Part shown: piece after piece, positions 14,287 to 64,000 of the stretch
Layout: the number at the start of each line of letters is the position of its first letter
Numbering within the stretch: position 1 is the first letter of the stretch
Source: an uncultured virus (IMG/VR IMGVR_UViG_3300047443_000199)
Lineage: Duplodnaviria > Heunggongvirae > Uroviricota > Caudoviricetes
Length of the DNA: 64,000 bases
Strand: one strand, 5' to 3'
IMG/VR virus record: IMGVR_UViG_3300047443_000199
The notes under the pieces: model-generated
The model's input: the letters and a program-made list of their open reading frames with translations, nothing else
Databases searched by the model: none
Told to the model about the DNA's origin: nothing
Translations under genes and position numbers: made by a program

Positions 14287-14532
14287 TTATAAAAGGCGTT
14301 TCTGCTCAATGATCGCTTGGGCTATTTTGTCCAGCTCTTCATGGGCCACAAGCTCATCAGACCAGCGCCCTGCCACCTCCTGGTAGTACTCAACGGCTTT
14401 CGGGCTATCACCTTCTGGCTGGCGAATAGGACCGAGAAACGCTACCTGCGGTGGGCCATCCATCTGCGGGCCGAATGTGATCCACACTTTTGGTTCGTTC
14501 TCTGGGTAGCCGTACGAATCCCAATAAGCCAT
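14287..14532 (-). CDS. 81-aa accessory protein behind ATGGA-hairpin leader
   Basis: AAGGAG RBS before ATG (MAYWDSYG...). Confidence 0.7.
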   Translation of the reverse strand: MAYWDSYGYPENEPKVWITFGPQMDGPPQVAFLGPIRQPEGDSPKAVEYYQEVAGRWSDELVAHEELDKIAQAIIEQKRLL

Positions 14533-14548
14533 ATCGATTCTCCTTTTA

Positions 14549-14563
14549 CCGGCTCCATGCCGG
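14549..14563 (-). promoter_or_regulatory. Leader hairpin copy 1, putative CsrA/RsmA site
   Basis: CCGGC-ATGGA-GCCGG on minus strand, just upstream of RBS. Confidence 0.6.
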
Positions 14564-14886
14564 GCCATCCACCAATAGCCCACTTCAACGAATCACGCCA
14601 GCCGGCGAGGCCGGCGCCTGACTGGAGATACATCATGAAGAAGATCGTAGAAATCAAGGACGGCTTGGCGAAGGCGCTGGCAGACGCTCATCTTCAGATG
14701 GTTGAGAATGACTATCAGGGCTTCGACTACAAGATTGCGAATTCCGGGGGCTCAAGGTGCGCATCGTGGCGGAGCAGGAAGGACTGGGCGTCATGGACCG
14801 CTGGGAATCGACGGCGAACTGAATGTCACAGCATTCTGCGAAGCCTGACCCGCCCTCACCTATTGCGCCGGAGTGCGGCTGGCGAA

Positions 14887-15360
14887 CTATTTAGGAAATG
14901 ATTTCAGCGATTGAATGTGTGCTGACATTGATCCCGACAACTCTTCCAAAGCCACCATCAACTTTCGCCATTCTTGAGAAAACTCCTCACTGCCATCACT
15001 CAGAGATTCAAAGTTTTTCTGAGACTTGTAAAAAACATCCTGATAAGCCACTACCGCGTCAGATTGGACTCTGTGCTTTTTCTTAACATCATCATTTGCA
15101 AAGAGTCGAATTACGGCATTCAGATGCGCCAGATCTTTTTCGAGATCCATGCTTTTGAGCTTTGAGCGAAGAAAAAGCTCAGTTCCTGAAAGGACCATCA
15201 AGTATTTTTCTTCTATTGAATGACGAACTGCGCTTTGCTCTAAACGCTTAGCTGTTTCAGTAGCCGAAATATTGTTCAAAAGCCAAGTGCAAATAGACCC
15301 TGCTAAAACGGAAATGGCAGAAATAACGCCAACCGTAACCATTGCCAATTCCTGAGCCAT
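14887..15360 (-). CDS. Accessory protein with N-terminal TM helix behind ATGGA-hairpin leader
   Basis: GGGAGG RBS; MAQELAMVTVGVISAISVLAGSICTWLL; low GC. Confidence 0.75.
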   Translation of the reverse strand: MAQELAMVTVGVISAISVLAGSICTWLLNNISATETAKRLEQSAVRHSIEEKYLMVLSGTELFLRSKLKSMDLEKDLAHLNAVIRLFANDDVKKKHRVQSDAVVAYQDVFYKSQKNFESLSDGSEEFSQEWRKLMVALEELSGSMSAHIQSLKSFPK

Positions 15361-15377
15361 TTTCAAACCCTCCCAAT

Positions 15378-15392
15378 CCGGCTCCATGCCGG
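15378..15392 (-). promoter_or_regulatory. Leader hairpin copy 2, putative CsrA/RsmA site
   Basis: CCGGC-ATGGA-GCCGG; upstream ~50 bp also similar to copy 1. Confidence 0.6.
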
Positions 15393-15461
15393 GCCGAACA
15401 CAAATACACCACATCAACGAATCACGCCAGCCGGCGAGGCCTACTGGTGCACGGCAGATCA

Positions 15462-15914
15462 ATGAATGAGTTGGCTCTTTTCGCAGGCTCTGGTGGCGGA
15501 ATACTTGGCGACCACCTGCTCGGGTGGCGCACCGTCTGCGCCGTTGAGCGTGATGCCTACTCCACACAAGTTCTGGCACAACGAAAAAACGATGGAGCCT
15601 TCCCAACTTTCCCGATTTGGTCTGACGTGTGCAGTTTTAACGGAAGACCATGGCGCGGCCTTGTTGATGTGGTTTCTGGCGGATTCCCTTGTCAGGACAT
15701 ATCAGCTGCCGGGAATGGCGCTGGCATCGACGGAGCACGATCCGGGCTCTGGCGTGAAATGGCGCGAATCATCGGCGAAGTACGACCTGATCAGGTCTAC
15801 CTGGAAAACTCACCTTTGTTTGTGGGAAGAGGACTTGCACTGGTCCTCGGTGACCTTGCCGAAATGAGGTATGACGCGCAGTGGTTCATTGTTTCAGCAT
15901 TAAATGGGCGTTGA
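15462..15914 (+). pseudogene. Phage C5-cytosine DNA methyltransferase, truncated
   Basis: LFAGSGG (motif I), GGFPCQDIS (IV), LENSP (VI); ends just before IS remnant. Confidence 0.8.
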
Positions 15915-15947
15915 GCTGCAGGAGAGTGCCCCTTGGTGGCTGATAGT

Positions 15948-18172: not shown

Positions 18173-18390
18173 TCTGCATCCCTCGCTTCGATCTTGGCGC
18201 ACAGCCATGCATCCACCTCAGCCACGACGTAATACGCAGCAGCCTGGCGGGTGTCGCCGTCTTTGATCGGCTTCGGGAAGGTCGGGTCTTTCTTGCGGAG
18301 CTTGTCTAGGCCGGAGCGGGACAGGTCCAGCCATTGACAGAGCGCTGGCTGACGGATGAGAGCTTTCGGGGGAATTGTTACTGGTTGCAT
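18169..18390 (-). CDS. alpA: AlpA-family regulator/excisionase
   Basis: LIRQPALCQWLDLSRS...DPTFPKPIK...EVDAW. Confidence 0.85.
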   Translation of the reverse strand: MQPVTIPPKALIRQPALCQWLDLSRSGLDKLRKKDPTFPKPIKDGDTRQAAAYYVVAEVDAWLCAKIEARDAE

Positions 18391-18462
18391 TTGAGCGCCT
18401 CCGTATCGGTACGGAGCCATTTTTGTTGAACCCCCGATTGCTGTCGCAGTGCTCAAAAGAGA

Positions 18463-19125: not shown

Positions 19126-20435
19126 GTTTGTATCCCCCGTATCACGCTCACAATATCGGTGTTCCGGTGTGCAAAATCATAGGGCGTGATGTGCTTTTCC
19201 CGGTTGGCGTCCAAGTAGTCAGCCCACCACGTCATCATCAGTCGGCGCTCTTCCAGGTGCTCAGCCTTGTGGATATAGGCCGCGCGCACGCCATTGCGCT
19301 CTTGGTGGCTCATTTGCCGCTCAACCGCGTCCCGCGACCACAGGCCGGACTCGACCAACGCGGAACAGGCCATAGTGCGGAACCCGTGCCCGCAAACGTC
19401 TATCTTGGTGTCGTACCCCATGCGGCGCAGTGACTTGTTTACGGTGTTCTCCGACATTGGCCGCCAGTGGTAATGATCTCCTGGCAGCACCAGCTCAAAA
19501 CGACCGCTCAGCCGGCGTATCTGTTCCAGCACCTCAAGCGTCTGGCGTGACAACGGGACAAGGTGCGGAGTCCCCATCTTGGCTCCTCGGTGCGACCTCT
19601 TGACACCCTCGATTGGTGCCCGTTCGCCGGGAATCGTCCACATGCTCCGGGTAAAGTCGAACTCCGACCAGCGAGCAAAACGCAGCTCACTAGAACGAAT
19701 GAACACCAGTAAAGCGAGGCTTACAGCAAGACAGGTAAGCGGTCGTCCGGTGTCAGCCTCGCAGCGTTGCAACAACTCCGGCAACCGCTCAAGGGGCAAG
19801 GCCGGGCGGTGTTTGGTCTTGCGGGTGGCAGTCCCCCCCACCAGATCAAGCGCCGGGTTGTATTCGATGAAATTGCGCTGAACGGCGATTCGCATGATTC
19901 CGGCGATGCGCTGGCGCAGTCGCCCAACCAGATCAAGCGCGCCGCGTTTCTCTACCGCCTTCAGACAGACCAGCAGATCACGGGTTTTCAGGACGGTTAC
20001 GGGGCGCTTGCCCAGCATGGGGAAAAGATCAACCTCAATCTCTTTCAGTACCCTGACCGCGTGATCCTTCGACCATTTGCCGGCCATGCTGGCGTGCCAC
20101 TCCAGGGCCAGCGCCTCAAAGGTGTTCCCCGCCTCATTGGCCGCCTCGATCTTTGCTTGCTTAGCGCTCTCGATGGGGTCTTGGCCATGCGCCAGCAACT
20201 CGAGTGCATCGGCTCGACGCGCGCGGGCGGCTTTCAGAGTGATAGCCGGGTAGTTGCCGAACGTGGCCAGACCAGGCTTACCGCTTGGCTTTTTATACTT
20301 GAAGCGCCAGACCTTGGTGCCGGTAGCCCTTACAAGCAAAAAAAGCCCTTGCCCATCGAACAGGGTGTAGTCCTTTGCGCGGGGTTTGGCGGCCTCGCAT
20401 TTGGGGTCAGTAAGGGGGGTTACAGTGCGCGCCAT
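19122..20435 (-). CDS. int: P4-type integrase with arm-binding domain
   Basis: DGQGLFL N-domain; IRSSELR, HGFR, MSH, AAY motifs; adjacent to tRNA 3' end. Confidence 0.96.
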   Translation of the reverse strand: MARTVTPLTDPKCEAAKPRAKDYTLFDGQGLFLLVRATGTKVWRFKYKKPSGKPGLATFGNYPAITLKAARARRADALELLAHGQDPIESAKQAKIEAANEAGNTFEALALEWHASMAGKWSKDHAVRVLKEIEVDLFPMLGKRPVTVLKTRDLLVCLKAVEKRGALDLVGRLRQRIAGIMRIAVQRNFIEYNPALDLVGGTATRKTKHRPALPLERLPELLQRCEADTGRPLTCLAVSLALLVFIRSSELRFARWSEFDFTRSMWTIPGERAPIEGVKRSHRGAKMGTPHLVPLSRQTLEVLEQIRRLSGRFELVLPGDHYHWRPMSENTVNKSLRRMGYDTKIDVCGHGFRTMACSALVESGLWSRDAVERQMSHQERNGVRAAYIHKAEHLEERRLMMTWWADYLDANREKHITPYDFAHRNTDIVSVIRGIQT

Positions 20436-23707: not shown

Positions 23708-24043
23708 GCCGTGGGCTGCCTTCCGGGAAGGGCAGTTCTGGGTCGAATGCGGTCAGTGCTTTTTAGTAAATGGCAGGGTATAGAAAGGAATTCGCCCCCC
23801 TTCAGGCGGCTATGCAGTCCACCTTAGGCCAGCTAATTCAGTCTTTCCGCTCGAGGTCTGAGGCGCATTGCGGCCAATGGCAGACTCTTGGGTTTCTGGG
23901 GATGTACTTGCGGTACATAGAAGAATGCGGAAAGATCTAGCGTAACGCATAATAAGCGATTCAAGCAGTTCACTACCCTCCCTCGGGACTACGTCTGCAA
24001 TCCCTTAACCTATTCGTCATATACCCCTTTGGAGCCCCCTGCG

Positions 24044-24748
24044 ATGACCTTTGAAGACTGGATGCGCCACCGAGGGCTATCTCCATCATCGGTGAAAAAG
24101 TACGAAGGCGCTATTCGTGGACCGATGTCCGAGTGGGCCATGGATAGCGGTCTTACTCAAGGCCCACTGACTTCATTAATTAGTCAGTCTGCGCTGGAAA
24201 CAATTGCGCCTAAAATCCGTGCGCTACCAATTTATAAAGAGAGAAACGAACGTGGCCATCACATGTACAGCAGCGCTCTTTTAAAATTCTCAGAATATCT
24301 CTCAGAGGATTGTAACAGCGACATTGAATCAGATATTGATGACATTTTGAGTGCTACTGATATTGGCGAGACAGAGAAAAGCAATCTAGTTAAATCGAGA
24401 ATCGGCCAAGGCATTTTCAGGCAAAAACTGGTTTCCTATTGGAATAGTTGTGCCATAACCGGCTTTAAGGACATGAGATTACTAGTCGCCTCACACATAA
24501 AACCCTGGCGCGCCTCAACTAATTCAGAGCGGCTAGATCAATTCAATGGCTTCTTGCTTACCCCAAATCTAGATAAAGCCTTCGATACGGGCTACATAAC
24601 CTTATCGCCAACAGGCAACATAGAGATATCCCCTCTTCTGACAGAACCGGAAATACTAGGTATTTCTCCAAACATGCGCATTTCCCTAGCTCCGGAGCAT
24701 GAGCCATTCCTTGCATTTCACCGCTCCGAGGTATTTCGTGCCACATGA
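24044..24748 (+). CDS. HNH endonuclease with uncharacterised N-terminal domain
   Basis: RIGQGIFR...CAITG...LVASHIKPW...NGFLLTPNLDKAFD. Confidence 0.9.
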   Translation: MTFEDWMRHRGLSPSSVKKYEGAIRGPMSEWAMDSGLTQGPLTSLISQSALETIAPKIRALPIYKERNERGHHMYSSALLKFSEYLSEDCNSDIESDIDDILSATDIGETEKSNLVKSRIGQGIFRQKLVSYWNSCAITGFKDMRLLVASHIKPWRASTNSERLDQFNGFLLTPNLDKAFDTGYITLSPTGNIEISPLLTEPEILGISPNMRISLAPEHEPFLAFHRSEVFRAT

Positions 24749-25004
24749 CAGTACTCTCAACACTGTTCACGTCACTTGGCCAATTTCTGGTGAGATTATA
24801 AAAAAGCCTGGATTTATAGGTTATTGGATTATGGGGGATTATTACTACCCAACACGGTTATTCAAAAAGGACCTTTATCCCCCTAAATCTGTCCTACCTC
24901 CCAGCTTCTAAGTAGAGGACACCTCTGCCATTTAATTACCTGACGTTCAGAGATGTCATCAAAAGACGTTATAAGATCGAGCCCCTTCACTTAGATAATG
25001 ATCT

Positions 25005-25988
25005 CTACGAAAGATAATTGCTACGCACTTCTGCTTGCAGACCTTCATTCTTGAAAAGATAACTCACAATTCTAGGGATCTCCAACTCTAAATAGTTTGC
25101 AAAAAACTTCAACTGAGGGTCGATTGCAGAACGATGATAGTTATGAACCAAGTTGTTTCTAACATCATATATAAGCGTCGGGCGATGAGCATCAGTATAG
25201 TATTTTTCGGTTCTAGCATCTCCCAAAACAGCCCTAACCTGGGCAGCCAATGCAACATCAATTTGTTCACCACCCATATCCAGATAAAACAGGGTGATTA
25301 GTTTTTTCTCCGAGGATAGCTCTGCCATTCTTTCCCGAACAGCTGCTAACGGAAGCCTCTCCTTCCTGTAGTCATTAATCACCTTATAAAACGTGAGATC
25401 CATCGCTAATTCATACAACTGGTAAATCAGCATGAATCGCGCGTACTCATTAGATTCACAAGGAAGAACATCAAAAAAAAGCGTTGCCCAATAGCCATAG
25501 GCTTGAGTGATATCAAAGCACTTATCAACCTTCAGCCTAGGTGAAAATTGAGTTCCCGTTGAGCGAGATATCGACGAATGCTTAGTGCGAAATGGATAAA
25601 CCCCATAACTTAAAAAACTTAAAGACAGCTCACCAATGGTATCTATCCCAGCATCACCCATCAATCGCCGACTGACTACCAGCACATAAGTCCGTTCATC
25701 CAACCCCTTTTCACCCAACAAGCTCATTGCTTCATAAACATGCTTAATAAAATATGGATTACTATTGAAATCATGCTCGATAGAGCTCATAGAAATAAAC
25801 GGAATCAGCCAGCCAATTCTAATATCTCTTGATTTTCCAGGCAAAAAAACCTCAGCAATTTCCTTTTCATCAGCGTCAAACTTCGTATATAAGGCGACCT
25901 CATATGGCCCCATAACTTCCGGATACGGATTTGAATGATATTTTTCGTGAACAAGTTCCTGCATTGGAGTATTCAGATCCATGTTCAC
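25005..25988 (-). CDS. Hypothetical protein with C-terminal HEPN-like RxxxxH motif
   Basis: FMLIYQLYEL...IYDVRNNLVHNY; coupled to upstream gene. Confidence 0.7.
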   Translation of the reverse strand: MNMDLNTPMQELVHEKYHSNPYPEVMGPYEVALYTKFDADEKEIAEVFLPGKSRDIRIGWLIPFISMSSIEHDFNSNPYFIKHVYEAMSLLGEKGLDERTYVLVVSRRLMGDAGIDTIGELSLSFLSYGVYPFRTKHSSISRSTGTQFSPRLKVDKCFDITQAYGYWATLFFDVLPCESNEYARFMLIYQLYELAMDLTFYKVINDYRKERLPLAAVRERMAELSSEKKLITLFYLDMGGEQIDVALAAQVRAVLGDARTEKYYTDAHRPTLIYDVRNNLVHNYHRSAIDPQLKFFANYLELEIPRIVSYLFKNEGLQAEVRSNYLS

Positions 25989-27148
25989 ACCTCAGCGAGC
26001 GCTCGCTTTCTGGCCTTTTCCAACGAATCGTATACCGAGCAAAAAGTACCACCTTCCTTATCCAACAGATTCCGGAAGAATAACTTGAAGAAAATCCTTT
26101 GCCCCGTACCGATCTTTTTAGACTTATCCCGCACATCATCAAGAGCTTTATTTATATATAGCAAGTCATCTTCTGTAAACTTCATTTTCAACCGAGTTCT
26201 TTCAACGCACTCCAACGACTCAATGGCCCCGCTATGTATAAGCTCAGCTACAGCAGCCCCATACCCCGTCAAAGCTTGACTTCGGTTGAAAATCCGGTAC
26301 ACACTTTTTCCAAATGGAGGCCCAACTGTCTTCAGATCCCCATTGAACTCAGCTTCATTTGGGTAAGTCCAGCCAGCAAACTCATTATCAAAAGCTTGCA
26401 CCACTCCATAATATGATCGGACAAACTCAGGAAATTCAATTTTCTTGCCAGCGCTCTCATCAGAGATAAATTCTATCGTCTTAACTGCTTGGAGAATATC
26501 AAATCTATCTAATGGCAGTTCATTTCTTTCAAGAAAAGAGTTATAACCTTCGATCAGGTCAGAAAAACGGTAATCAGTGATCGAGGTGACTGACTCTTCG
26601 TCAGTTTCCTTGAGAATATTGATATCATCCAATTCACTCCCAGCATATTTAGAAAAGAGAATTTCTAGCTGATGACGTAACGTCATTGGCGTTTGGCCGG
26701 TATTCAAAGTCAACATTCTATAAAGAAGTCCGGTCTCACTGATTGATAAATAGACCTCAGCTCTGACCAGGTAATCCTGTTGAGCAAAATGACCAGGATT
26801 ATTGCGGTACACGTCGATGATGGACAACGTTCGCTGCAGCCCATCAAGAATCTTCAAATTATCAGAATCCTCCAAAACTTCATCTAAGCGTTCTTCATCA
26901 TTAACCTGACGATCTAGACTAGCAGTCGACGCGAGAACAATTGGCGGAATGATACAACCTTTCAAGATATCCTCCTTGAGAAGGCTGTACACGCTATTAC
27001 TTCTGCTAACTTTATTTCGTTGGTACACATTATTTTGGACAATCTTTGATGCCAATTCCACATAGTCCTTTATATCAATAATGAACTGAATATTCTTCGA
27101 CTTAACTTTTTTATCATCCAGCACATGTATTATCTGTTTCATGGTCAT
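25985..27148 (-). CDS. ParB/Srx-fold (DUF262/DGQHR-like) protein
   Basis: YQR, IIPPIVL, ILDGLQRT, LNTGQTPM motifs. Confidence 0.78.
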   Translation of the reverse strand: MTMKQIIHVLDDKKVKSKNIQFIIDIKDYVELASKIVQNNVYQRNKVSRSNSVYSLLKEDILKGCIIPPIVLASTASLDRQVNDEERLDEVLEDSDNLKILDGLQRTLSIIDVYRNNPGHFAQQDYLVRAEVYLSISETGLLYRMLTLNTGQTPMTLRHQLEILFSKYAGSELDDINILKETDEESVTSITDYRFSDLIEGYNSFLERNELPLDRFDILQAVKTIEFISDESAGKKIEFPEFVRSYYGVVQAFDNEFAGWTYPNEAEFNGDLKTVGPPFGKSVYRIFNRSQALTGYGAAVAELIHSGAIESLECVERTRLKMKFTEDDLLYINKALDDVRDKSKKIGTGQRIFFKLFFRNLLDKEGGTFCSVYDSLEKARKRALAEV

Positions 27149-57972: not shown

Positions 57973-58012
57973 CGTCTAGTTTTCTCTCGGCGCCGTTGCG
58001 CTCAAAGTTTGC

Positions 58013-58234
58013 TCATGAAATGGGCAGCATCCGGCGACGCGACCTTTTTGCGCTTTGGACCGGGAATGGTCTGAACTCTTCAGCTGTGAAAGAACCATCT
58101 GCGTGCTCAGTAACAAAAATGTCACGGCCAACCTGCAGAGCTTTGTTGAGCGACCCTTGGGACATCCCAAGCAGATTTGCTGCGTTGGTTTGCCCGCGTG
58201 CACGAGCAAACTCATCCAGACTTTTTCGGCTCAT
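58013..58234 (-). CDS. cro: Cro repressor
   Basis: GQTNAANLLGMSQGSLNKAL...EEFRPFP, lambda Cro-like. Confidence 0.9.
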   Translation of the reverse strand: MSRKSLDEFARARGQTNAANLLGMSQGSLNKALQVGRDIFVTEHADGSFTAEEFRPFPVQSAKRSRRRMLPIS

Positions 58235-58267
58235 CTCGCCGATCTCCTTTATTAAACATCCAACAAG

Positions 58268-58332
58268 TATCTCCGGCGGAATTTAATTAATCAAGCCCGG
58301 CGGCATTTGATTAAATATCGCCGCTAGGAATA
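58268..58332. promoter_or_regulatory. Operator region between cro and cI (OR-like)
   Basis: Three related sites CTCCGGCGGAAT, CCCGGCGGCAT, CGCCGCTAGGAAT. Confidence 0.7.
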
Positions 58333-58340
58333 ATCGTGGA

Positions 58341-59063
58341 ATGAAAAAACGCGAACTCGAAGACTGGGAAAAAGAAGAGTGCTCGGCACTCAAAGCGGCT
58401 GTGGATGCCTTCAACACAGGCAAGTCGCGGCGTGACGCCCTGACACAGGGAAAGATCGCAGATGCCCTAGGCATAAATCAGGGCTCCGTCAGTTCGTACC
58501 TGAACGGCTACAACGCACTGAATGCGAAAGTCGCTAGCGCAATTGCCGGATTGATTTCCAAGCCCGTGGAGTCATTCAGCCCTCGACTGGCTGATGAGAT
58601 TGCGAAAATGGCGCAGTCCAGCTTCGAATCTAATGTCGAGGCTGGCCCCCCCATCTATTCCTCACCTCGCAGAATCAATATCGAAGGCACCGCACAGCTC
58701 GGCAGTGAGGGATATTGGACAAGCCTTGACCAGGCAGCTGGCTGGGTTGAGACCTACTCCAGAGATGAGGACGCCTACGCACTTCGGCTCAAGGGTGACT
58801 CAATGGCACCAGCAATCCGTAGCGGGTGGGTCGCTGTCTGCGAACCCAATCACCGCCTAGTGCCGGGTGAGTATGTAATGGTCACCACCGTTGATGGACA
58901 AAGCATGGTTAAAGAACTTCTCTTCGAGACCGAAGAAGAGGTCAGCCTCATGTCGATCAACTCGGCTTACGGCGAGCGGCTGACAGTAGCTCGGGTTGAT
59001 ATCGAGAAAATCCATTACGTAGGGGCAATTCTTGCCCCCAGCAAGGTGCTGGGCAGAATCTAA
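58341..59063 (+). CDS. cI: CI repressor with S24 peptidase domain
   Basis: HTH TQGKIADALGINQGSVS; KGDSMAP; MVKEL. Confidence 0.95.
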   Translation: MKKRELEDWEKEECSALKAAVDAFNTGKSRRDALTQGKIADALGINQGSVSSYLNGYNALNAKVASAIAGLISKPVESFSPRLADEIAKMAQSSFESNVEAGPPIYSSPRRINIEGTAQLGSEGYWTSLDQAAGWVETYSRDEDAYALRLKGDSMAPAIRSGWVAVCEPNHRLVPGEYVMVTTVDGQSMVKELLFETEEEVSLMSINSAYGERLTVARVDIEKIHYVGAILAPSKVLGRI

Positions 59064-59112
59064 ATTTGAGCCCTTCGATTTGTCTCTAATTCCCTTGGAC
59101 ACCTCCCTCCTG

Positions 59113-59138
59113 AAGCCCGCAAATTGCGGGCTTTTCTC
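59113..59138 (+). terminator. Terminator after cI
   Basis: AAGCCCGCAAATTGCGGGCTTTT. Confidence 0.8.
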
Positions 59139-59225
59139 TGTTAAATAATTGTTTTTAATCGTTAATCTTTAGCGCTTAGGGTTCAAGCCATTCACTGTGT
59201 ATCCATACATAAAAGGAGCAGTGCT

Positions 59226-59474
59226 ATGGCAAAGCCAAAAAACAAACCAACACCGCCAAACTCGTTTGAGCTTCTTGGATTCCGCATCCAAAAAATCATC
59301 AGCGCCCCCGCTGCCCAAAAACGAAAAACCGTAGTCATTTGCAAGGAAGCAGATGAATGCCTTAAGGACTGGAAACGGCTCCTTGAAGAGATAGCAGAAA
59401 CCGAGCACGTACTAGTGCATCGAGAAGATGACTGCGCCGCGCGCATCTCTTGGGACCTCCCCGCAAATATCTAG
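59226..59474 (+). CDS. DUF1654-like protein
   Basis: SFELLGFRIQKII.AP.AQK; followed by terminator at ~59482-59508. Confidence 0.7.
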   Translation: MAKPKNKPTPPNSFELLGFRIQKIISAPAAQKRKTVVICKEADECLKDWKRLLEEIAETEHVLVHREDDCAARISWDLPANI

Positions 59475-59521
59475 CCCAAAGCAAGCCCGTCCAACACGGG
59501 CTTTTTTCATAGAGCGGAATT

Positions 59522-59583
59522 ATATCTCCGGCGGCATTGACTTTAAATATCCCCGGCGGCAATATTTGTCCGCCGCAGCGAAT
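59522..59583. promoter_or_regulatory. Second operator/promoter (OL/PL-like)
   Basis: CTCCGGCGGCAT, CCCCGGCGGCAAT sites around TTGACT -35. Confidence 0.7.
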
Positions 59584-59792
59584 CGCAGCGGCAATACGGG
59601 GCCACCCGCCGCTCTTTAACAACCCAATCGATTCAAAGCTGCCAGCTGCAAAAAGACTAACGCACCAGGCGTGGGCGACTCCCACCTAAGTGCGCCGTAT
59701 CTGAGTCCCGCTGACAGCCCAAACAGATTTCACTACATGGCCTTGGCAACAGGGCCATGTGGGAAATCCCATCCCCTGTATGAGGAAACACC

Positions 59793-60242
59793 ATGTTCGG
59801 AATGAAAAAACTCTTCGGCAAACAAGTCGGCAATGCCCAGGCCGAAATGAAGAAGGTCGTTAACCGCGACTTGATGCAGGCCATTGTCGGTGGCGGCCTA
59901 TTGGTCGCTGCGGCTGATGGTGAGATTGAAGCCAGCGAGGTTTCCAAGCTGGATGAGCTGATTCGCTCCAACCCAAATTTGACGCACTTCGGCAGCGAAA
60001 TCACCGAAACCATCAATCGTTTTACAGGCCAGTTGAACGCCAACTTCCAAGTAGGTCGATTGGCGATCAAGCGCGAACTGGCCGACATCAAAAACGTTCC
60101 GACCGACGCAGAGGAAGCCTTCGTTAACATTCTTGCCGTTGCCCAGGCTGATGGTCAGATCGAGCCAGCAGAGTTGGTGGTGCTGAAGGAAATAGGCATG
60201 CACTTCGGTCTGCGCCTGGCTGACTACGGTATCGAGGCGTGA
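59793..60242 (+). CDS. TerB-family protein
   Basis: Two ADG.I...E motifs (ADGEIEASE, ADGQIEPAE). Confidence 0.88.
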   Translation: MFGMKKLFGKQVGNAQAEMKKVVNRDLMQAIVGGGLLVAAADGEIEASEVSKLDELIRSNPNLTHFGSEITETINRFTGQLNANFQVGRLAIKRELADIKNVPTDAEEAFVNILAVAQADGQIEPAELVVLKEIGMHFGLRLADYGIEA

Positions 60243-60442
60243 AGTACGCGACAAAGGTTCTGCTGATCCTGCTGGCACTGATCGTCGGCTGCATATTGCT
60301 GAGCAACGTAGCCTCTCGGGCCACTTGCTCCTACTACGGCTTCCAGACTGACCGAGAGACCCGCTACGCCGCCTTTGTTGGCTGCATGGTTCTGGTTAAC
60401 GGTGCGTGGTTCCCTCGTAACGAAATCCGCGTAATGCAGTGA
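60239..60442 (+). CDS. Small membrane-anchored protein
   Basis: N-terminal TM helix, Cys pair; GTGA overlap with terB. Confidence 0.7.
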   Translation: MKYATKVLLILLALIVGCILLSNVASRATCSYYGFQTDRETRYAAFVGCMVLVNGAWFPRNEIRVMQ

Positions 60443-60507
60443 CGTTTCACTGATGCCGCTTCTTACAAGGCGGCATTGGGAAACTAACTCACGCAAGGAA
60501 ATGGACA

Positions 60508-60708
60508 ATGCTAATTTTGACTCGCAAAGAAGGCGAAAGCATCAACATAGGCAACGACATCACGATCACAGTGTTGGGTGTTAGCGGCAAACAGGTACGT
60601 ATCGGAATAAGCGCCCCAAAAGATGTCCTGGTAAATCGAGAAGAAATCACGCAGCGCATTCAGGCGGGTCTGTCGACTCCCTCGATGGCAACACCTGCAA
60701 TCACTTAG
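60508..60708 (+). CDS. csrA: Phage-encoded CsrA/RsmA homolog
   Basis: [47 protein letters not shown]. Confidence 0.95.
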
Positions 60709-60859
60709 ACAGGTCTTCGTGACGCAAACAATGGCCCGGTTCCGATCGGGCTTTTTTACGCCTGCAATTTATCAATCAGCCCCCCTTCCCTGCCCAATGG
60801 GCACCGGCAGATGGTCGGAGTGCTGATGAATACACCTAACCTACTCCGAGGGATCAACC

Positions 60860-61132
60860 ATGCATCCATCATTTCAAGAGCGCTTCGATGAAGTCGGTGA
60901 GCTGCTGCAACGAACAAAGGCCGCCCGCTCCGGGTTCTACAGTCGTATTGATCGACGTGCCCCAGCCAAACCGGTGCGCTACCAAATCGCAGGCGGAAGC
61001 TTCGGTATGTATCAGATTAAAGACCGCACCACCGACAAGACTCACGCCTTCCGTGACGACTACAAGGCTGCTCACGACCTTGCCATGCAGTTCGAAGCAA
61101 AAGCCAATCGTCAGCTTGCGGTGACGCTATGA
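60860..61132 (+). CDS. Phage early hypothetical protein
   Basis: GAGG RBS; overlaps next ORF. Confidence 0.7.
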   Translation: MHPSFQERFDEVGELLQRTKAARSGFYSRIDRRAPAKPVRYQIAGGSFGMYQIKDRTTDKTHAFRDDYKAAHDLAMQFEAKANRQLAVTL

Positions 61133-61590
61133 AAAAGCGAAAGCCCAATAACATGCGTACCCGGTTAGAGCGAGCGAGCCGGGCACTGCTCAATGCCAAT
61201 CACGTCGCAGTGGTCCACATCGATCCCAGCGGACGCCAAGGGATGATCAACAGGAAGAGCTGCAAGAGCATCCCGCCAGGGCAGCGCATGGCAGAAGCAG
61301 TCTGCGACATTGCCCACCGCTGGACGATCTATGTCAGCGTCCAGTGTCGCGATCAACAAGGGCACCGCTACACTAAATCAGTAGAGGTTGCTCCCCAAGG
61401 CAACTATCTGGCCGCGCACCTCGAAGACGTGATCGAGGAAACCTACAAAGACCTGGTCGCCGAGAGCAATCCGAATCATCGGGTTGCTTCGGGCTGGATC
61501 GCCATTCCCGCCGAAATATCGCTGACTGAAGAGCAAGCCGCCCAGGTGTTCGACGCCGCGGGTGTCTGGAATCAACAGAGGGCAGCATGA
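61129..61590 (+). CDS. Phage early hypothetical protein
   Basis: 153-aa ORF in early operon. Confidence 0.75.
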   Translation: MKKRKPNNMRTRLERASRALLNANHVAVVHIDPSGRQGMINRKSCKSIPPGQRMAEAVCDIAHRWTIYVSVQCRDQQGHRYTKSVEVAPQGNYLAAHLEDVIEETYKDLVAESNPNHRVASGWIAIPAEISLTEEQAAQVFDAAGVWNQQRAA

Positions 61591-61827
61591 GAAGCATCAG
61601 CAACCAGGTACGCCAGCGCCGACGACAGGCATGGCTGGATCTACCGGCCCACGGAATTGAAGAGGCAGGCCATGACGCAAAGTCAACGCGCAGATCCAGC
61701 AGGACAACCGCACCAAGGAGAAAACCCTGCTAGAGCGAATTGGCGCCGAGAAGCGCACGCTGATTGTGTCGAGGGCGCTGACTGATGCTATAACCGCGAG
61801 GCGCTGCATATTTGCCGAAACGAATAG

Positions 61828-62076
61828 TTACTCCGGCACGATCACAAACAGGCAGTAGTGATTGCCATCAACAACCATGGCATTACCTTCACCTGACTCG
61901 ACGATCTCGCCAAGATACTTTCCGCTCATGTCGTAGAACTCGGAACCTTCAACCCGATAGAGCAGACCTTTATTCGATCGGACAAACTCGTCCTCGTCGA
62001 TACGGCCAATCAGCGGTGCTCCCGGTCCACGACCTTCGTACACGTTGTAACGTCCAGCGCTGTAATCAGTAGCCAT
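61828..62076 (-). CDS. 82-aa accessory protein behind ATGGA-hairpin leader
   Basis: GGGAG RBS; beta-rich; antisense to early operon. Confidence 0.75.
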   Translation of the reverse strand: MATDYSAGRYNVYEGRGPGAPLIGRIDEDEFVRSNKGLLYRVEGSEFYDMSGKYLGEIVESGEGNAMVVDGNHYCLFVIVPE

Positions 62077-62089
62077 CTTATCTCCCTAT

Positions 62090-62104
62090 CCGGCTCCATG
62101 CCGG
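62090..62104 (-). promoter_or_regulatory. Leader hairpin copy 3, putative CsrA/RsmA site
   Basis: CCGGC-ATGGA-GCCGG. Confidence 0.6.
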
Positions 62105-62173
62105 TCATCCGTATTAACTCACCTCAAACCAAATTGCCACTGTCGCATCCGGTCACTGGAAACCGTGCAGACG

Positions 62174-62506
62174 CTATTTAGCGCGGTTTTGGTAGCTCTC
62201 CAGCTTAGATTTCGCCCTAGAAATTAAGGCTGGGGTCCGTGGATTGCCTGCTTCATCGGTGAGAACCATGATTGCAACGCATCGGCATCCCACATCGTTA
62301 TCATTCAGCCCCCACCACTCAAGCATTTCCGGCCCAGTAAAAAGCTCTCCATGCCGGGCGACATGTTCGTCGCGGCTATTTGGGGCAAGCGCTGACATGT
62401 GCATGAAGCGGTGAGAAATACCCAGGCGCTTCGCATCCGCTATGTCCTGATTCAACTTGCGAATTTTCATAGCGTGAAGTTCAGAATCTGCAGGTTTGTT
62501 CGCCAC
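62174..62506 (-). CDS. Accessory protein with MuF-like His/Cys motif behind hairpin leader
   Basis: AAGGAG RBS + GTG; SRDEHVARHG...NDVGCRC. Confidence 0.7.
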   Translation of the reverse strand: MANKPADSELHAMKIRKLNQDIADAKRLGISHRFMHMSALAPNSRDEHVARHGELFTGPEMLEWWGLNDNDVGCRCVAIMVLTDEAGNPRTPALISRAKSKLESYQNRAK

Positions 62507-62521
62507 AACACTCTCCTTTGT

Positions 62522-62536
62522 CCAGCTCCATGCCGG
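62522..62536 (-). promoter_or_regulatory. Leader hairpin copy 4 (G-U variant)
   Basis: CCGGC-ATGGA-GCTGG; the substitution keeps pairing as a G-U wobble. Confidence 0.6.
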
Positions 62537-62755
62537 GCGGAACACAAATACCCCACTGAATGGGTCGAGTGGCTCATGGGGTGGCCCATCAGGTGGACCG
62601 AATTAAAGCCCTTGGCAATGGACAAGTTCCGCGAGTGGCAGCAACAGCATTCACTCTTCTCTCAATCGACCGAGACTGACGCAGCGTAAGCGCCTACCCC
62701 CCTCCACCGGCCGGGCATGACCAAGCGCATCAGCGGGCCGAAGTTAGAAGTCCAT

Positions 62756-63061
62756 TTATTCCGAAGTTATCGGCTCACCAGAGCGGCTCCGCAAGATGGT
62801 GGATCGCTCATTAACAGCGCGGTGCAATAAAGAAACACTGTAATCGTAGGTCGAAATCAACGGTACTGGTCCCTCCCGCCGAGCCATCGCGAGCCATTGC
62901 CTAGTTCGTTCAACGTCAAAAAACTCGCTCTTGAACTTCATCTTCGCAACAAGGTTCGCTGAGACTCTGAAGTGTCCACAACCAGCTGAGCATTTGACCT
63001 CTGACCAGTCTCCAAGCGCGTGAACAATCCTGGCGGCAGCCTGACAGATTAAGCACTTCAT
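62756..63061 (-). CDS. Small Cys-rich phage hypothetical protein
   Basis: Paralog of 462-767. Confidence 0.7.
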   Translation of the reverse strand: MKCLICQAAARIVHALGDWSEVKCSAGCGHFRVSANLVAKMKFKSEFFDVERTRQWLAMARREGPVPLISTYDYSVSLLHRAVNERSTILRSRSGEPITSE

Positions 63062-63274
63062 ATCCGATCTCCATATCAGTGACCCATCAACTGTAGCCGA
63101 TCATTGGCGAAGGACATCCCAATGCCCACAGAAAATCGATCCACCCGGTTTCACCCGGATCCGCAAGTCGCTGATTAGCATCAGCGCGACAGTCTCCGAC
63201 CTAGCGCCTTCAGCAAACGAACTGCCACCTCCACTCACCCACCTTCTGCCGCCAAGCGCGGCACGGAGCAGCTC

Positions 63275-63481
63275 ATGAACATCCAGTTTCTTTCCCATGA
63301 GGAGGTTTGCGAGCTCACTGGCGCTCGGACCAAGGCCGGACAGATCCTCAACCTGAAGAAAAACGGCGTCAGGCACACCATCAAAGTGAATGGCTGGCCA
63401 AGCGTCACCGCCATGGCCGTAACAGCGGTCGGCATGTATGAAGCAGAAAAACCAGAATGGAAACCACGCAAGGCTAGCTGA
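63275..63481 (+). CDS. DUF4224-type excisionase-like protein
   Basis: Paralog of 982-1188. Confidence 0.78.
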   Translation: MNIQFLSHEEVCELTGARTKAGQILNLKKNGVRHTIKVNGWPSVTAMAVTAVGMYEAEKPEWKPRKAS

Positions 63482-63482
63482 T

Positions 63483-64000
63483 ATGGGACGACGACCAAGT
63501 AAAACCGGCTCAATTGCCCGGCTGCGAGAGCGAAAGAAAGCCAGCGGCCGGACTTTCTATTACTACGAGATAGGCGGAAAGGACCGGAAAGAGATCGCAC
63601 TGGGTAGCGATTACGGACTGGCGATCATGGAATACGCCAAACTTGAGCGTGACCGCACAGCGACTGCTTTGGTCGCCAAAGTGATCACGTTCAGGTATGT
63701 GGCCGAAAAATACATGATCGACGTTGTGCCAACGAAAAAGCCGGCCACACAGAAGGACAATGTCAGAGAGCTGAAGAACTTGATGTCCTTTTTCGATGAT
63801 CCGCCAGCCCCGCTCGAAACAATCAAGCCACTGCACGTCCGCCAGTACCTAACATGGCGGAAGGCGGCACCAGTGCGAGCAAACAGAGAAAAGGCCCTGC
63901 TCAGCGCAATCTGGAACTTCGCCAGGGACGTTGGATATACAGCTCTGGCCAACCCATGCGCCGGGATTAAGGGCAACAAGGAAACAGGTAGAGACATCTA
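63483..64000 (+). CDS. int: Prophage 2 integrase (5' part, runs off window)
   Basis: MGRRPSK..., colinear with 1190-2221. Confidence 0.92.
   Translation, partial: MGRRPSKTGSIARLRERKKASGRTFYYYEIGGKDRKEIALGSDYGLAIMEYAKLERDRTATALVAKVITFRYVAEKYMIDVVPTKKPATQKDNVRELKNLMSFFDDPPAPLETIKPLHVRQYLTWRKAAPVRANREKALLSAIWNFARDVGYTALANPCAGIKGNKETGRDI

What the first reader, a model, noticed from the sequence alone, without database searches (positions are those of the whole stretch)
60480..62560. Phage CsrA plus a reusable ATGGA-hairpin leader in front of swappable antisense genes
Seen: CCGGC-ATGGA-GC(C/T)GG occurs four times on the minus strand (14549, 15378, 62090, 62522). Each copy lies a few nt upstream of the Shine-Dalgarno of a different, unrelated small gene inserted against the direction of a phage early operon. 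The only variant keeps pairing as G-U. The prophage encodes a CsrA homolog 1.4 kb away, and its own RBS region has AAGGA and ATGGA. Known: CsrA/RsmA dimers bind ANGGA in hairpin loops plus a second GGA in the SD and block translation. Inference: a standard expression slot in which accessory (possibly defence or toxic) genes are translated in the lysogen and silenced by phage CsrA after induction, or are tied to the host Gac/Rsm state. I do not know a description of this module.
Basis: partly seen in the sequence, partly recalled or inferred. Interest (0 to 1): 0.85.

Follow-up and report, generated by a model that had tools for sequence, protein, structure and literature searches.

The report
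Reusable phage leader for accessory genes
The four hairpins belong to a short conserved start signal that temperate Pseudomonas phages place in front of many unrelated small accessory genes, a handy marker for finding such genes, but the proposed control by the phage's own CsrA protein is not supported.

Summary
Observation confirmed: CCGGCATGGAGCYGG occurs 4 times on the minus strand (0 expected). Each copy lies 13-16 nt before the start of a different small ORF. A CsrA gene lies at 60508-60708.

The hairpin is the core of a ~65-nt leader: TGGC..TTG..GGGGTATT block, 5-bp GC hairpin, AAGGAG, start codon. It is widespread in temperate Pseudomonas phages. Of 198 copies, 181 precede an SD plus ORF, and these cargoes fall into 87 unrelated clusters. 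In 46 of 49 large phage records it lies within 12 kb of an end, always pointing inward. Empty and filled slots exist.

The "reusable slot" reading is therefore supported. The closest analogue is the PeSL cassette of T4-type phages.

The CsrA half is not supported. Only 3 of 50 leader-bearing phages encode CsrA. Loop GGA is present in only 135 of 211 neutrally sampled hairpins; AUGGG is common and equally followed by genes. The stem is far more conserved than the loop.

Binding of host RsmA/E to canonical copies remains possible. The promoter and the transcript start are inferred, not shown.

The parts
62105..62139 (-). Promoter-like conserved block of leader copy 3: TGGCAA, 17 nt, TAATAC, 6 nt, ending at the hairpin.
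   Evidence: Read. Matched by the leader profile (62141-62086, E 2.5e-12). Aligned with family members.
62090..62104 (-). Hairpin CCGGC-AUGGA-GCCGG of leader copy 3.
   Evidence: Predicted as the only structure of the short leader, -9.3 kcal/mol.
61828..62076 (-). Cargo gene 3, 82 aa (MATDYSAGRYNVYEG...). SD AGGGAG; ATG 13 nt after the hairpin.
   Evidence: Homologues stand behind the same leader in other phages (cluster of 5, e.g. L057). No Pfam, PHROG or PADLOC match.
62537..62557 (-). Truncated leader block of copy 4. Only the AGTGGGGTATTTGTGTTCCGC half is kept; the TGGC..TTG half is missing.
   Evidence: The profile matches only model positions 24-71. The sequence further upstream is instead the end of a methyltransferase gene on the other strand.
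62522..62536 (-). Hairpin of copy 4, CCGGC-AUGGA-GCUGG (one G-U pair).
   Evidence: In the short-leader fold the minimum-energy structure is a different one.
62174..62506 (-). Cargo gene 4, 110 aa, GTG start 15 nt after the hairpin. It resembles the C-terminal part of Mu F / head-morphogenesis proteins. It contains the fifth partial motif at 62347-62357.
   Evidence: Pfam Phage_Mu_F E 2e-4, below the cut-off. phrog_22052 E 1e-32 and phrog_758 E 6e-21.
62552..62689 (+). Remnant of a C-5 cytosine DNA methyltransferase gene (last 45 codons) that abuts leader copy 4.
   Evidence: tblastn: 81% identity to the C-terminus of Salmonella phage methyltransferases. No Pfam hit for the fragment itself.
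60508..60708 (+). Phage CsrA/RsmA homologue (66 aa) in the operon direction, not behind a leader copy.
   Evidence: Pfam PF02599, E 2.5e-25, 88.6 bits. AAGGA and ATGGA before its ATG. Leu4, Arg6 and Arg44 are present by reading the translation; the residue roles are recalled.
14564..14600 (-). Promoter-like block of leader copy 1: TGGCGT, 17 nt, TATTGG, 8 nt.
   Evidence: Read. Profile match 14608-14538, E 1.1e-14.
14549..14563 (-). Hairpin of copy 1.
14287..14532 (-). Cargo gene 1, 81 aa (MAYWDSYGYPENEPKV...). SD AAGGAG; ATG 16 nt after the hairpin.
   Evidence: Homologues lie behind the same leader elsewhere (cluster of 4 with L268; also L010, second copy).
15393..15429 (-). Promoter-like block of leader copy 2: TGGCGT, 17 nt, TATTTG, 8 nt.
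   Evidence: Read. Profile match 15437-15372, E 1.5e-12. 85% identical to phage phiAH14a over 65 nt.
15378..15392 (-). Hairpin of copy 2.
14887..15360 (-). Cargo gene 2, 157 aa, with an N-terminal hydrophobic stretch. It forms a cluster of its own.
   Evidence: No Pfam, PHROG or PADLOC match.
15462..15914 (+). N-terminal 150 codons of a C-5 cytosine methyltransferase, divergent from leader copy 2 and cut short next to a transposase-like fragment.
   Evidence: Pfam DNA_methylase E 7.9e-19, profile positions 4-144 of 324. Matches to phage methyltransferases, and to a transposase region of phage MD8 at window 15947-16146.

Best explanation
The four hairpins are copies of a portable expression leader of temperate Pseudomonas phages. 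The unit is about 65 nt long and has three parts:
- a conserved block that begins with TGGC exactly 35-37 nt before the hairpin and contains GGGGTATT;
- a 5-bp G+C hairpin with a 5-nt loop;
- an AAGGAG-type Shine-Dalgarno and a start codon, usually 14-16 nt after the hairpin.

Phages place this unit, with one small accessory gene behind it, in the integrase-proximal early region. It is always antisense to the early operon, tail to tail with an operon gene, and often occurs in tandem.

Shown:
- The unit is conserved.
- It precedes many unrelated genes.
- Its place and orientation are fixed.
- Related phages differ by empty and filled slots.

Inferred:
- The block is the promoter. Its layout has sigma-70 geometry: TGGCGT, 17 nt, TATTAC, 6 nt. 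The hexamers are weak.
- Transcription starts at or 1-2 nt before the hairpin.
- The hairpin acts in the cargo-sense RNA as a 5'-terminal stem-loop. It would protect or insulate the short leader while leaving the SD free.
- Homologous recombination between leader copies moves, deletes and swaps the cargo, as shown for PeSL cassettes of T4-type phages.

With the early operon repressed in the lysogen, such antisense units would be free to express lysogen-benefit genes; one cargo is the defence gene PD-T7-5. The loop GGA of the commonest form makes it a plausible RsmA/E site. That is not what the family conserves, and the phage CsrA in this window is one more variable early gene rather than the leader's partner.
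For: Family and spread:
Of these, 47 share the extended leader and 73 are chance hits.
- With the flanks fixed and the interior free, all 115 matches have a 15-nt interior.
- Of 26 family loci with record titles in species-representative genomes, 25 are Pseudomonas.
- The fetched DNA holds 358 distinct leader sequences.
- The named phages phiAH14a, UFJF_PfDIW6 and PseuP_222 carry it. There is no plasmid match.

Cargo:
- Of 198 distinct copies, 181 are followed by SD, start and at least 40 codons. Seven are clear empty slots.
- The cargoes form 87 clusters at blastp E 1e-5.
- The hairpin-to-start distance is 14-16 nt in 148 of 181.
- Cargoes are mostly ORFans: Pfam hits in 4 of 89 and PHROG hits in 10 of 44, nine of them of unknown function. 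PADLOC hits 1 of 50, PD-T7-5 at E 1e-97.

Slot:
- In L033 the cargo sits exactly between the hairpin and the stop codon of the gene that abuts the hairpin in phiAH14a.
- In 46 of 49 phage records of at least 40 kb the leader is within 12 kb of an end (median 7.5 kb). All 46 point away from that end (strand columns), as in the window.

Promoter inference:
- Conservation starts at TGGC and is lost upstream of it, even where the upstream DNA is unrelated.
- In leaders that lack the hairpin, the conserved block ends at the position where the hairpin would start, and a cargo-specific 5'UTR follows (L379, L396, L478, L493, L552).

RNA-level hairpin in the cargo sense:
- Stem positions are 98-100% conserved, against 84-98% for loop positions (n=94).
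- Stem changes are mostly C>T, which keep G-U pairs in the cargo-sense RNA only: 21 C>T against 9 G>A, one-sided binomial p 0.02. There is one compensatory C-G to U-A change.
- The consensus fold is the 5-bp hairpin alone.
- The SD is unpaired in 3 of 4 predicted window leaders.
Against: - No consensus sigma-70 promoter is found at any of the four leaders: 0 sites in both window regions, against 1.0 expected in shuffles. The proposed hexamers lack the usual T at -7.
- No transcript data could be obtained, so neither the promoter nor the presence of the hairpin in the RNA is shown.
- No pair of the hairpin shows covariation in the 80-sequence alignment. The strand asymmetry of substitutions is modest, the copies are related by descent, and 8 of the 9 G>A changes hit the terminal pair.
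- The hairpin's folding energy is not unusual against shuffles: z from -2.3 to +0.1.
- About 6-7% of leaders have no gene behind them, and nearly all of these carry the canonical loop. A pure cargo-expression role does not explain that.
- Copy 62522 lacks the TGGC half of the block yet keeps an intact ORF.
- The cargo units have no terminator of their own.
Confidence: 0.6

Rival explanations
1. One reading: the phage CsrA, made after induction, binds the loop GGA and the SD GGA of each leader and shuts off the antisense accessory genes.
For: - All four window leaders have AUGGA in a 5-nt loop on a C-G closing pair and a second GGA in the SD 12-13 nt further on.
- The window's CsrA scores well above the Pfam cut-off and keeps Arg44.
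- It lies in the early operon 1.4 kb away.
- A(N)GGA(X) loops on a stem are the known Csr/Rsm target, and AGGGA/AAGGA pentaloops bind RsmE strongly (PMC4005645, passages).
Against: - CsrA is encoded in only 3 of 50 leader-bearing phage records. That is about the 5% background reported for Pseudomonas phages (PMC7366521).
- In those three records csrA is not behind a leader.
- Loop GGA is absent from 76 of 211 hairpins. Those leaders still precede SD+start in 72 of 76 cases.
- According to PMC4005645 the GGA bases cannot be replaced.
Confidence: 0.06
2. Host Gac/Rsm control: chromosomal RsmA/RsmE binds the canonical AUGGA hairpin together with the SD. Accessory genes would then be translated only when RsmX/Y/Z sRNAs titrate the repressor, for example at high cell density. 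AUGGG and other loops would be escape or tuning variants.
For: - The canonical loop is the modal state: 132 of 211.
- 175 of 181 leaders have GGA in the SD window at a suitable distance.
- The family is confined to Pseudomonas, a genus with RsmA/E in its core genome (PMC7366521).
- Loop variants arise on several different upstream leader versions, which would fit repeated tuning.
Against: - The loop's GGA is the least conserved part of the element: the A is kept in 84% and 64% of copies in two samples, against 98-100% for the stem.
- 36% of hairpins lack GGA.
- About 10% of leaders lack the hairpin altogether, and 13 of 23 of these still precede SD+start.
- Empty slots keep the canonical loop although there is nothing to repress.
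- A GGA in the SD is expected of any AGGAG-type SD.
Confidence: 0.22
3. A DNA-level element: the inverted repeat and its conserved flanks are a recombination linker or a protein-binding site whose purpose is cassette exchange. Any effect on expression would be secondary.
For: - Empty and filled slots have breakpoints at the edges of the element.
- Tandem copies flank single genes: the window pairs; L018, L057 and L367.
- The leader is mosaic. Its upstream half occurs alone in phiPSA1-type phages. Copy 62522 is truncated inside the block.
- PeSL recombination and mini-circles are documented for an analogous element, and a stem-loop-binding recombination protein was suggested there (PMC2839356, passages).
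Against: - A constant 14-16 nt spacing to the start codon and a conserved SD are expression features.
- Loop conservation is asymmetric (A and U kept, GGA variable), and stem changes are biased to C>T on one strand. Both fit an RNA better than a symmetric DNA site.
- No dedicated recombinase was sought or found next to the element.
Confidence: 0.1
4. The element serves the early operon on the other strand, for example as a processing, pausing or attenuation signal between operon genes. Accessory genes would merely tend to land beside it.
For: - In phiAH14a, UFJF_PfDIW6 and about 14-16 of 234 sampled leaders the element lies directly after the stop codon of an operon-direction gene, with no antisense gene.
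- The DNA upstream of the block carries the SD and start of the next operon-direction gene.
Against: - There is no U-tract on either strand, so it is not an intrinsic terminator.
- The common stem variants would be A-C mismatches in the operon-sense RNA.
- More than 90% of copies have a gene with a correctly spaced SD on the antisense side.
- phiPSA1-type phages keep the operon-side sequence without the GGGGTATT block and hairpin.
Confidence: 0.05

Closest known systems
PeSL (promoter-early stem-loop) mobile regulatory cassettes of T4-type phages (PMC2839356, passages read; PMC4122927, abstract)
   Same: - A conserved intergenic motif of up to ~100 bp with promoter, stem-loop, SD and start codon, repeated in front of many ORFans in plastic genome regions.
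- Related phages differ by presence or absence of a gene bounded by the motif.
- The stem tolerates G-T pairs.
- Proposed role as a homologous-recombination linker that brings its own expression signals.
   Different: - PeSLs have strong consensus sigma-70 promoters, and their stem-loops were shown to terminate transcription. Here no consensus promoter is detected, and the hairpin has no U-tract and lies after the promoter-like block, next to the SD.
- The hosts are temperate Pseudomonas phages, not lytic T4-type phages.
- The units are antisense to the surrounding operon.
- Recombination and circles are not shown here.
Csr/Rsm target leaders and sponge-RNA hairpins, such as the hcnA RBS hairpin and the RsmZ stem-loops (PMC4005645, passages)
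   Same: A(N)GGA in a short loop directly on a stem with a C-G closing pair, plus a second GGA in the SD a dozen nt away, in Pseudomonas.
   Different: - Loop GGA is absent in 36% of family hairpins, and the stem is more conserved than the loop.
- There is no link to phage csrA.
- Binding is untested.
- The high-affinity pentaloops cited have a purine at N; here N is U.
Morons of lambdoid phages: single genes with their own promoter and terminator inserted between two phage genes (concept as summarised in PMC2839356; the rest recalled)
   Same: Single accessory genes inserted between neighbours that are adjacent in related phages, on the strand opposite to a repressed operon. One cargo is a defence gene.
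   Different: - Classical morons have unrelated, individual control signals and a terminator, and arrive by illegitimate recombination.
- These units share one leader, lack terminators and abut the convergent gene's stop codon.
5'-terminal stabiliser stem-loops of bacterial mRNAs, such as the ompA 5'UTR (recalled, not looked up)
   Same: A stable hairpin at or within 1-2 nt of the predicted 5' end, upstream of a free SD.
   Different: The position of the 5' end is only inferred here. No stability data exist.
csrA/rsm genes on Pseudomonas phages and plasmids (PMC7366521, passages)
   Same: The window's 66-aa CsrA is another phage-borne family member. Such alleles were reported in 9 of 185 Pseudomonas phages.
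   Different: That survey names no RNA targets on the phage. I find none that is specific to csrA-bearing phages.

Membership tests
Csr/Rsm-regulated leader (CsrA/RsmA/RsmE binding site pair) | GGA presented in the loop of a short hairpin (A(N)GGA(X) on a stem) | tested here: met
   All four window copies have an AUGGA pentaloop on a 5-bp stem. Motif definition from PMC4005645.
Csr/Rsm-regulated leader (CsrA/RsmA/RsmE binding site pair) | Loop GGA conserved among homologous leaders | tested here: not met
   GGA is in the loop in 135 of 211 hairpins, 74 of 94 and 25 of 44. AUGGG occurs in 52 of 211.
Csr/Rsm-regulated leader (CsrA/RsmA/RsmE binding site pair) | Second GGA overlapping the SD within reach of a dimer | tested here: met
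   175 of 181 leaders have one. In the window the two GGA lie 12-13 nt apart. This is not discriminating, because AGGAG-type SDs contain GGA.
Csr/Rsm-regulated leader (CsrA/RsmA/RsmE binding site pair) | Binding and translational repression by a CsrA-family protein | not testable with these tools
   Needs EMSA or ITC and reporter assays.
   3 of 50 leader-bearing phage records have PF02599. The three csrA genes are not behind a leader.
PeSL-type mobile regulatory cassette | Conserved intergenic motif repeated in front of unrelated ORFans, ending in SD and start codon | tested here: met
   181 of 198 copies precede an SD plus ORF; 87 cargo clusters; Pfam hits in 4 of 89.
PeSL-type mobile regulatory cassette | Consensus sigma-70 promoter inside the motif | tested here: inconclusive
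   No site passes the consensus scan. The conserved block nevertheless has -35 / 17 nt / -10 / 6 nt geometry and ends at the hairpin.
PeSL-type mobile regulatory cassette | Stable stem-loop within the motif that acts as a terminator or attenuator | tested here: inconclusive
   The stem-loop is present and conserved. No U-tract and no terminator-like call. Function is untested.
PeSL-type mobile regulatory cassette | Insertion/deletion differences between related phages bounded by the motif | tested here: met
   L033 (filled) against phiAH14a (empty); L007/L039 and other empty slots.
PeSL-type mobile regulatory cassette | Recombination between copies giving mini-circles | not testable with these tools
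   Needs inverse PCR or deep sequencing of induced lysogens.
Moron (lambdoid sense) | Own terminator after the gene | tested here: not met
   No terminator-like site after the window cargoes. In L033 the cargo stop abuts the convergent gene's stop.
Moron (lambdoid sense) | Inserted between genes that are adjacent in related phages | tested here: met
Intrinsic terminator | G+C stem followed by a U-run | tested here: not met
   None of the four hairpins is called. The flanks are AUCAAGGAG in the cargo sense and UCACCCGU in the opposite sense.
CsrA protein family (gene 60508-60708) | Match to PF02599 above the curated cut-off | tested here: met
   88.6 bits against a cut-off of 27, E 2.5e-25, profile positions 1-52 of 53.
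Rfam RNA families | Match to any curated covariance model | tested here: not met
   No match in 58000-64000. Only two chance-level eukaryotic hits in 13000-17000, away from the leaders.

The most novel reading that the evidence does not exclude
A genus-wide 'plug-and-play' cassette system of temperate Pseudomonas phages. One portable promoter, 5'-hairpin and SD unit both expresses and, by recombination between copies, shuffles a pool of at least 87 families of unknown lysogen-expressed genes (defence, exclusion or host-modifying). Its loop switches between an RsmA/E-binding form (AUGGA) and non-binding forms (AUGGG and others). Individual cargoes would thus be coupled to, or released from, the host Gac/Rsm state.
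Probability: 0.15. Interest if true: 0.8.

Novelty: new variant of a known kind. Interest (0 to 1): 0.55.

Why it matters
The leader is a short non-coding tag that marks accessory genes of temperate Pseudomonas phages. These genes are otherwise invisible: 85 of 89 cargo proteins have no Pfam match. Searching for the tag yields a ready catalogue of candidate defence, exclusion or host-modifying genes. One cargo is already a known defence gene, PD-T7-5.

The finding also extends the idea of shared regulatory cassettes as vehicles of modular shuffling. So far that idea is documented for lytic T4-type phages. Here it would apply to temperate phages, to antisense 'lysogen' genes, and to plant- and soil-associated Pseudomonas.

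If the block is a promoter, it is a compact, naturally portable expression part for Pseudomonas.

I found no description of it:
- No held paper contains the motif, apart from one chance hit in a wheat paper.
- A keyword search for a conserved moron promoter in Pseudomonas prophages listed nothing on this element by title or abstract (15 of 151 papers listed).
- The genome papers of PseuP_222 and phiAH14a do not mention promoters, hairpins or intergenic repeats there (term searches).
- The paper on UFJF_PfDIW6 was seen only in a search listing.

Tried and rejected
- **Whole genome:** none is held for this window, so copy number outside the window is unknown.
- **RNA evidence:** no RNA holder was listed for 60000-63300, so expression and 5' ends could not be examined.
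- **Rfam:** nothing relevant.
- **Megablast of 58-64 kb against named phages:** no match.
- **Plasmids:** no match to the leader.
- **Earlier scan notes:** none on this sequence. One note on another genome concerned a prophage CsrA without Arg44.
- **Sigma-54 promoter:** considered because of TGGC..TTG, and rejected by reading. The spacing is one base too long and the -12 GC is missing in both leader versions.
- **Sigma-32-like CCCCAT on the opposite strand:** rejected, because the T is not conserved.
- **A conserved small ORF starting at the loop ATG on either strand:** rejected, because the two spacer versions differ by 2 nt and shift the frame.
- **A larger conserved RNA structure around the hairpin:** the consensus fold finds only the 5-bp stem.
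- **Integron-like attC site:** considered but not pursued. The hairpin is at the 5' side of the cargo and is only 15 nt long.
- **Primase-helicase 16375-17529 against phage records:** gave only distant hits and no link to the phiAH14b satellite.
- **Lapouge et al. 2013 on pentaloops:** not held; it is cited only through PMC4005645.
- **Supplementary tables of PMC7366521** (phage csrA lists): not opened.

Full report
**1. The observation**

The 15-mer CCGGCATGGAGCYGG occurs four times, always on the minus strand, at 14549, 15378, 62090 and 62522. No match was found in 100 shuffles. The shorter CCGGCATGGAG has a fifth copy at 62347, inside an ORF.

Reading the minus strand shows a purine-rich SD after each hairpin and a start codon 13-16 nt after its last base. 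The ORFs are 14287-14532, 14887-15360, 61828-62076 and 62174-62506. The four products are unrelated to each other.

The CsrA gene is real: 60508-60708 on the plus strand, PF02599, E 2.5e-25.

Similarity among the copies is not limited to the hairpin. It runs 35-37 nt upstream in three copies and about 21 nt upstream in the fourth. A profile built from relatives finds only these four copies in the window.

**2. The surroundings**

Pfam scans of 81 ORFs give this map:
- 1-13 kb: an integrase and a defence-type island (a 998-aa reverse transcriptase, HNH, GIY-YIG, Sel1).
- 16.3-20.4 kb: a small integrative element (integrase, AlpA-like protein, primase-helicase).
- 24-27 kb: GmrSD-like genes.
- 28 kb to the window end: a prophage.

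In the prophage the structural and lysis genes and a Q-type antiterminator lie on the minus strand. An S24-type cI repressor lies at 58341-59063 on the plus strand. It is followed on the same strand by DUF1654, TerB, CsrA, unknown genes, an excisionase-like gene and the integrase.

The leaders at 62 kb and their two genes therefore lie antisense inside the integrase-ward early operon. The leaders at 14-15 kb face plus-strand genes. One of these is the first 150 codons of a C5 methyltransferase (15462-15914), cut short beside a transposase-like fragment.

The DNA just upstream of leader copy 4 encodes, on the plus strand, the last 45 codons of the same kind of methyltransferase. Copy 4 also lacks the upstream half of the conserved block. 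This looks like a deletion running from the block into the methyltransferase gene.

**3. Relatives**

73 are plainly chance matches, mostly inside coding sequence.
- *Flanks fixed, interior free.* This gave 114 loci with 115 matches. The interior was always 15 nt, and 85 were canonical.
Over all 123 fetched loci there were 44 distinct family copies. Of the 26 family loci with titles, 25 are Pseudomonas of the fluorescens, putida and syringae groups. The other is a 4-kb contig of a MAG labelled Geminicoccus.
- *Named phages.* phiAH14a, UFJF_PfDIW6 and PseuP_222 carry the leader. PseuP_222 has three copies.
- *Plasmids.* No match.
- *Total.* The fetched DNA holds 358 distinct leader sequences.

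**4. Anatomy of the unit**

The commonest form reads: TGGCGT GATTCGTTGATATGGGG TATTAC GGGTGA | CCGGC AUGGA GCCGG | AUCAAGGAG, then 5-7 nt, then AUG.

- There are two upstream versions: TGGCGTGATTCGTTGA.. and TGGCAATTTGGTTTGG...
- There are two spacers before the hairpin: ACGGGTGA and TGTGTTCGGC.
- These versions and spacers occur in mixed combinations.
- Conservation begins at TGGC. Further upstream the sequences are unrelated, or they carry the SD and start of the divergent operon-direction gene.
- The hairpin-to-start distance is 14-16 nt in 148 of 181 units, and 175 of 181 have GGA in the SD window.

**5. Cargo**

- Of 198 distinct copies, 181 are followed by SD, start and at least 40 codons. 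Seven are clear empty slots. The other ten are ambiguous: short flanks, no SD by my rule, or a repeat.
- The 181 products fall into 87 clusters by single linkage at blastp E 1e-5; 52 of these are singletons.
- Pfam matches 4 of 89 proteins tested: an octameric-membrane-protein family, DUF4160, a lipoprotein signal, and a sub-threshold Mu F match for the window's 110-aa protein.
- PHROGs matches 10 of 44. Nine are of unknown function.
- PADLOC matches 1 of 50: PD-T7-5, E 1e-97.

**6. The slot**

In phiAH14a the hairpin stands one base after the stop codon of gene p13, and no antisense gene follows. In L033 a 139-aa cargo sits exactly between the hairpin and the stop codon of the p13 homologue. 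The two convergent stop codons abut.

In 46 of 49 viral records of at least 40 kb the leader is within 12 kb of a record end (median 7.5 kb). In all 46 it points away from that end (strand columns). The window shows the same arrangement relative to its integrase. The three exceptions are two records with terminal repeats, which are probably permuted, and one copy at 14.9 kb.

**7. The CsrA idea**

*Co-occurrence.* PF02599 is found in 3 of 50 leader-bearing phage records, and in 3 of the 40 that are at least 90% complete. A survey reports csrA in 9 of 185 Pseudomonas phages (PMC7366521, passages), so there is no enrichment. The three csrA genes are not behind a leader.

*Loop conservation.*
- Flanks fixed: per-position identity is 99-100% for nine stem positions and 98% for one. 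For the loop it is A98 U98 G96 G94 A84 (n=94).
- Stem and GGGGTATT fixed: A100 U98 G93 G89 A64 (n=44).
- Two scans anchored only on the upstream block placed no constraint on the hairpin (234 distinct leaders). 211 have a recognisable hairpin, and 194 have all five pairs. The loop contains GGA in 135. AUGGA occurs 132 times and AUGGG 52 times.
- An SD and start follow in 113 of 135 GGA leaders and in 72 of 76 non-GGA leaders. In the first data set the figures were 140 of 153 and 41 of 45.
- AUGGG occurs on several different upstream versions.

The structural work on RsmE states that the GGA bases cannot be replaced (PMC4005645, passages). GGA-less leaders therefore cannot use this site, yet they are evidently functional. 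The canonical AUGGA pentaloop on a C-G pair, with a second GGA 12-13 nt away, remains a reasonable RsmA/E target. That paper cites high affinity for AGGGA and AAGGA pentaloops.

**8. What the hairpin and block most likely are**

*Hairpin.*
- The stem is the best-conserved part.
- Stem substitutions are mostly C>T, which leave G-U pairs in the cargo-sense RNA but A-C mismatches in the opposite sense: 21 C>T against 9 G>A, one-sided binomial p 0.02. Eight of the nine G>A changes are at the last base.
- One copy has a compensatory C-G to U-A change.
- In an 80-sequence alignment the only consensus structure is this stem. It shows 10 one-sided changes that keep pairing, one break and no double change. 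Some of those rows came from patterns that allowed Y at one stem position.
- Neither strand has a U-run after the stem, and no terminator is called.

*Block.*
- It has exact sigma-70 geometry: hexamer, 17 nt, hexamer, 6-8 nt, hairpin.
- Its 5' conservation limit is the -35-like hexamer.
- In leaders that lack the hairpin, the conserved sequence stops where the hairpin would begin, and a cargo-specific 5'UTR with SD follows.
- These points fit a promoter whose +1 is at the base of the hairpin. The RNA would then start with a stem-loop and a free SD (hairpin predicted and SD unpaired in 3 of 4 window leaders).

*Against this reading.*
- The hexamers are poor, and the consensus scan finds nothing.
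- No RNA data were available.
- The role as a 5' stabiliser is an inference from what is known of 5'-terminal stem-loops (recalled).

**9. Comparison with known systems**

The nearest described system is the PeSL of T4-type phages. PeSLs are ~100-bp cassettes of an early promoter, a stem-loop, an SD and a start, placed before ORFans. They were shown to recombine and to account for gene presence/absence between close relatives (PMC2839356, passages; PMC4122927, abstract).

The present element works like a PeSL but is not a member of that family:
- the host phages are different;
- there is no consensus promoter;
- the hairpin is not terminator-like;
- the units are antisense inside a repressed operon.

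It also differs from classical morons by the shared leader and the lack of terminators.

I found no description of it. The motif strings occur in no held paper except by chance. A keyword search for a conserved moron promoter in Pseudomonas prophages listed no paper on it by title or abstract (15 of 151 listed). The genome papers of PseuP_222 and phiAH14a do not mention it (term searches only).

**10. Verdict**

- The 'phage CsrA' half is not supported.
- Host Rsm control of the canonical form is an open minority possibility.

I rate it a new variant of a known kind, of moderate interest. Its main value is as a marker for unknown accessory genes and as a testable case of cassette shuffling in temperate phages.

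Noticed in passing
window 15462-15914 (+) and 62552-62689 (+): Two pieces of the same kind of C5 cytosine methyltransferase lie 47 kb apart: the N-terminal 150 codons and the C-terminal 45 codons. Both best match the same Salmonella phage genes, and each sits beside a leader copy. The first piece is cut off next to a transposase-like fragment at 15947-16146.
   Followed up: partly
window 62347-62357 (-): A fifth CCGGCATGGAG lies inside cargo ORF 62174-62506 and shares 14 nt (cgcccggcatggag) with the leader 180 nt upstream. It could be chance or a recombination scar; unexplained.
   Followed up: no
window 3118-11495: A defence-type island follows an integrase: a GIY-YIG-like protein, an HNH_2 protein, a 998-aa reverse-transcriptase protein (5364-8360) and a Sel1-repeat protein.
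   Followed up: no
window 24029-27148: An HNH_2 protein and a GmrSD-N-like protein (25985-27148) with an unknown partner (25005-25988). This may be a second defence cluster, between the small integrative element and the prophage.
   Followed up: no
window 16375-20435 (-): A small integrative element with integrase, an AlpA-like protein, a zinc-ribbon protein and an AAA_25 primase-helicase, reminiscent of a P4-type satellite. The leaders at 14-15 kb lie beside it. No link to the phiAH14b satellite was found.
   Followed up: partly
L075:2178-3014 (viral contig): A cargo gene behind a leader with loop AUAGA matches the single-gene defence system PD-T7-5, E 1e-97.
   Followed up: partly
L062 (second copy), L379, L396, L478, L493, L552: These leaders have the conserved block but not the usual hairpin. 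In L062 it is replaced by a different 7-bp hairpin (loop UGAG). In the others a cargo-specific 5'UTR starts at the block's end.
   Followed up: partly
L366 (phage phiPSA1) 2001-2050, and relatives: The upstream 'version B' part of the leader region occurs alone, without GGGGTATT and the hairpin, between an unannotated gene and a methyltransferase in phiPSA1, MR13, MR15, psageB2, psageK9 and Medea1. The region is therefore mosaic.
   Followed up: partly
all hairpins: The last loop bases plus the first base of the 3' arm read GGAG, GGGG or GAGG in most variants. All of these are SD-like, so a decoy or standby ribosome site is an untested alternative to both the Rsm and the stabiliser readings.
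   Followed up: no
L361 (Pseudomonas genome contig): A leader with loop AUGGG is followed directly by a run of ATGG tandem repeats instead of an SD.
   Followed up: no
Empty slots (a leader abutting the stop of an operon-direction gene) nearly all carry the canonical AUGGA loop. Non-GGA loops are almost always followed by a gene.
   Followed up: partly
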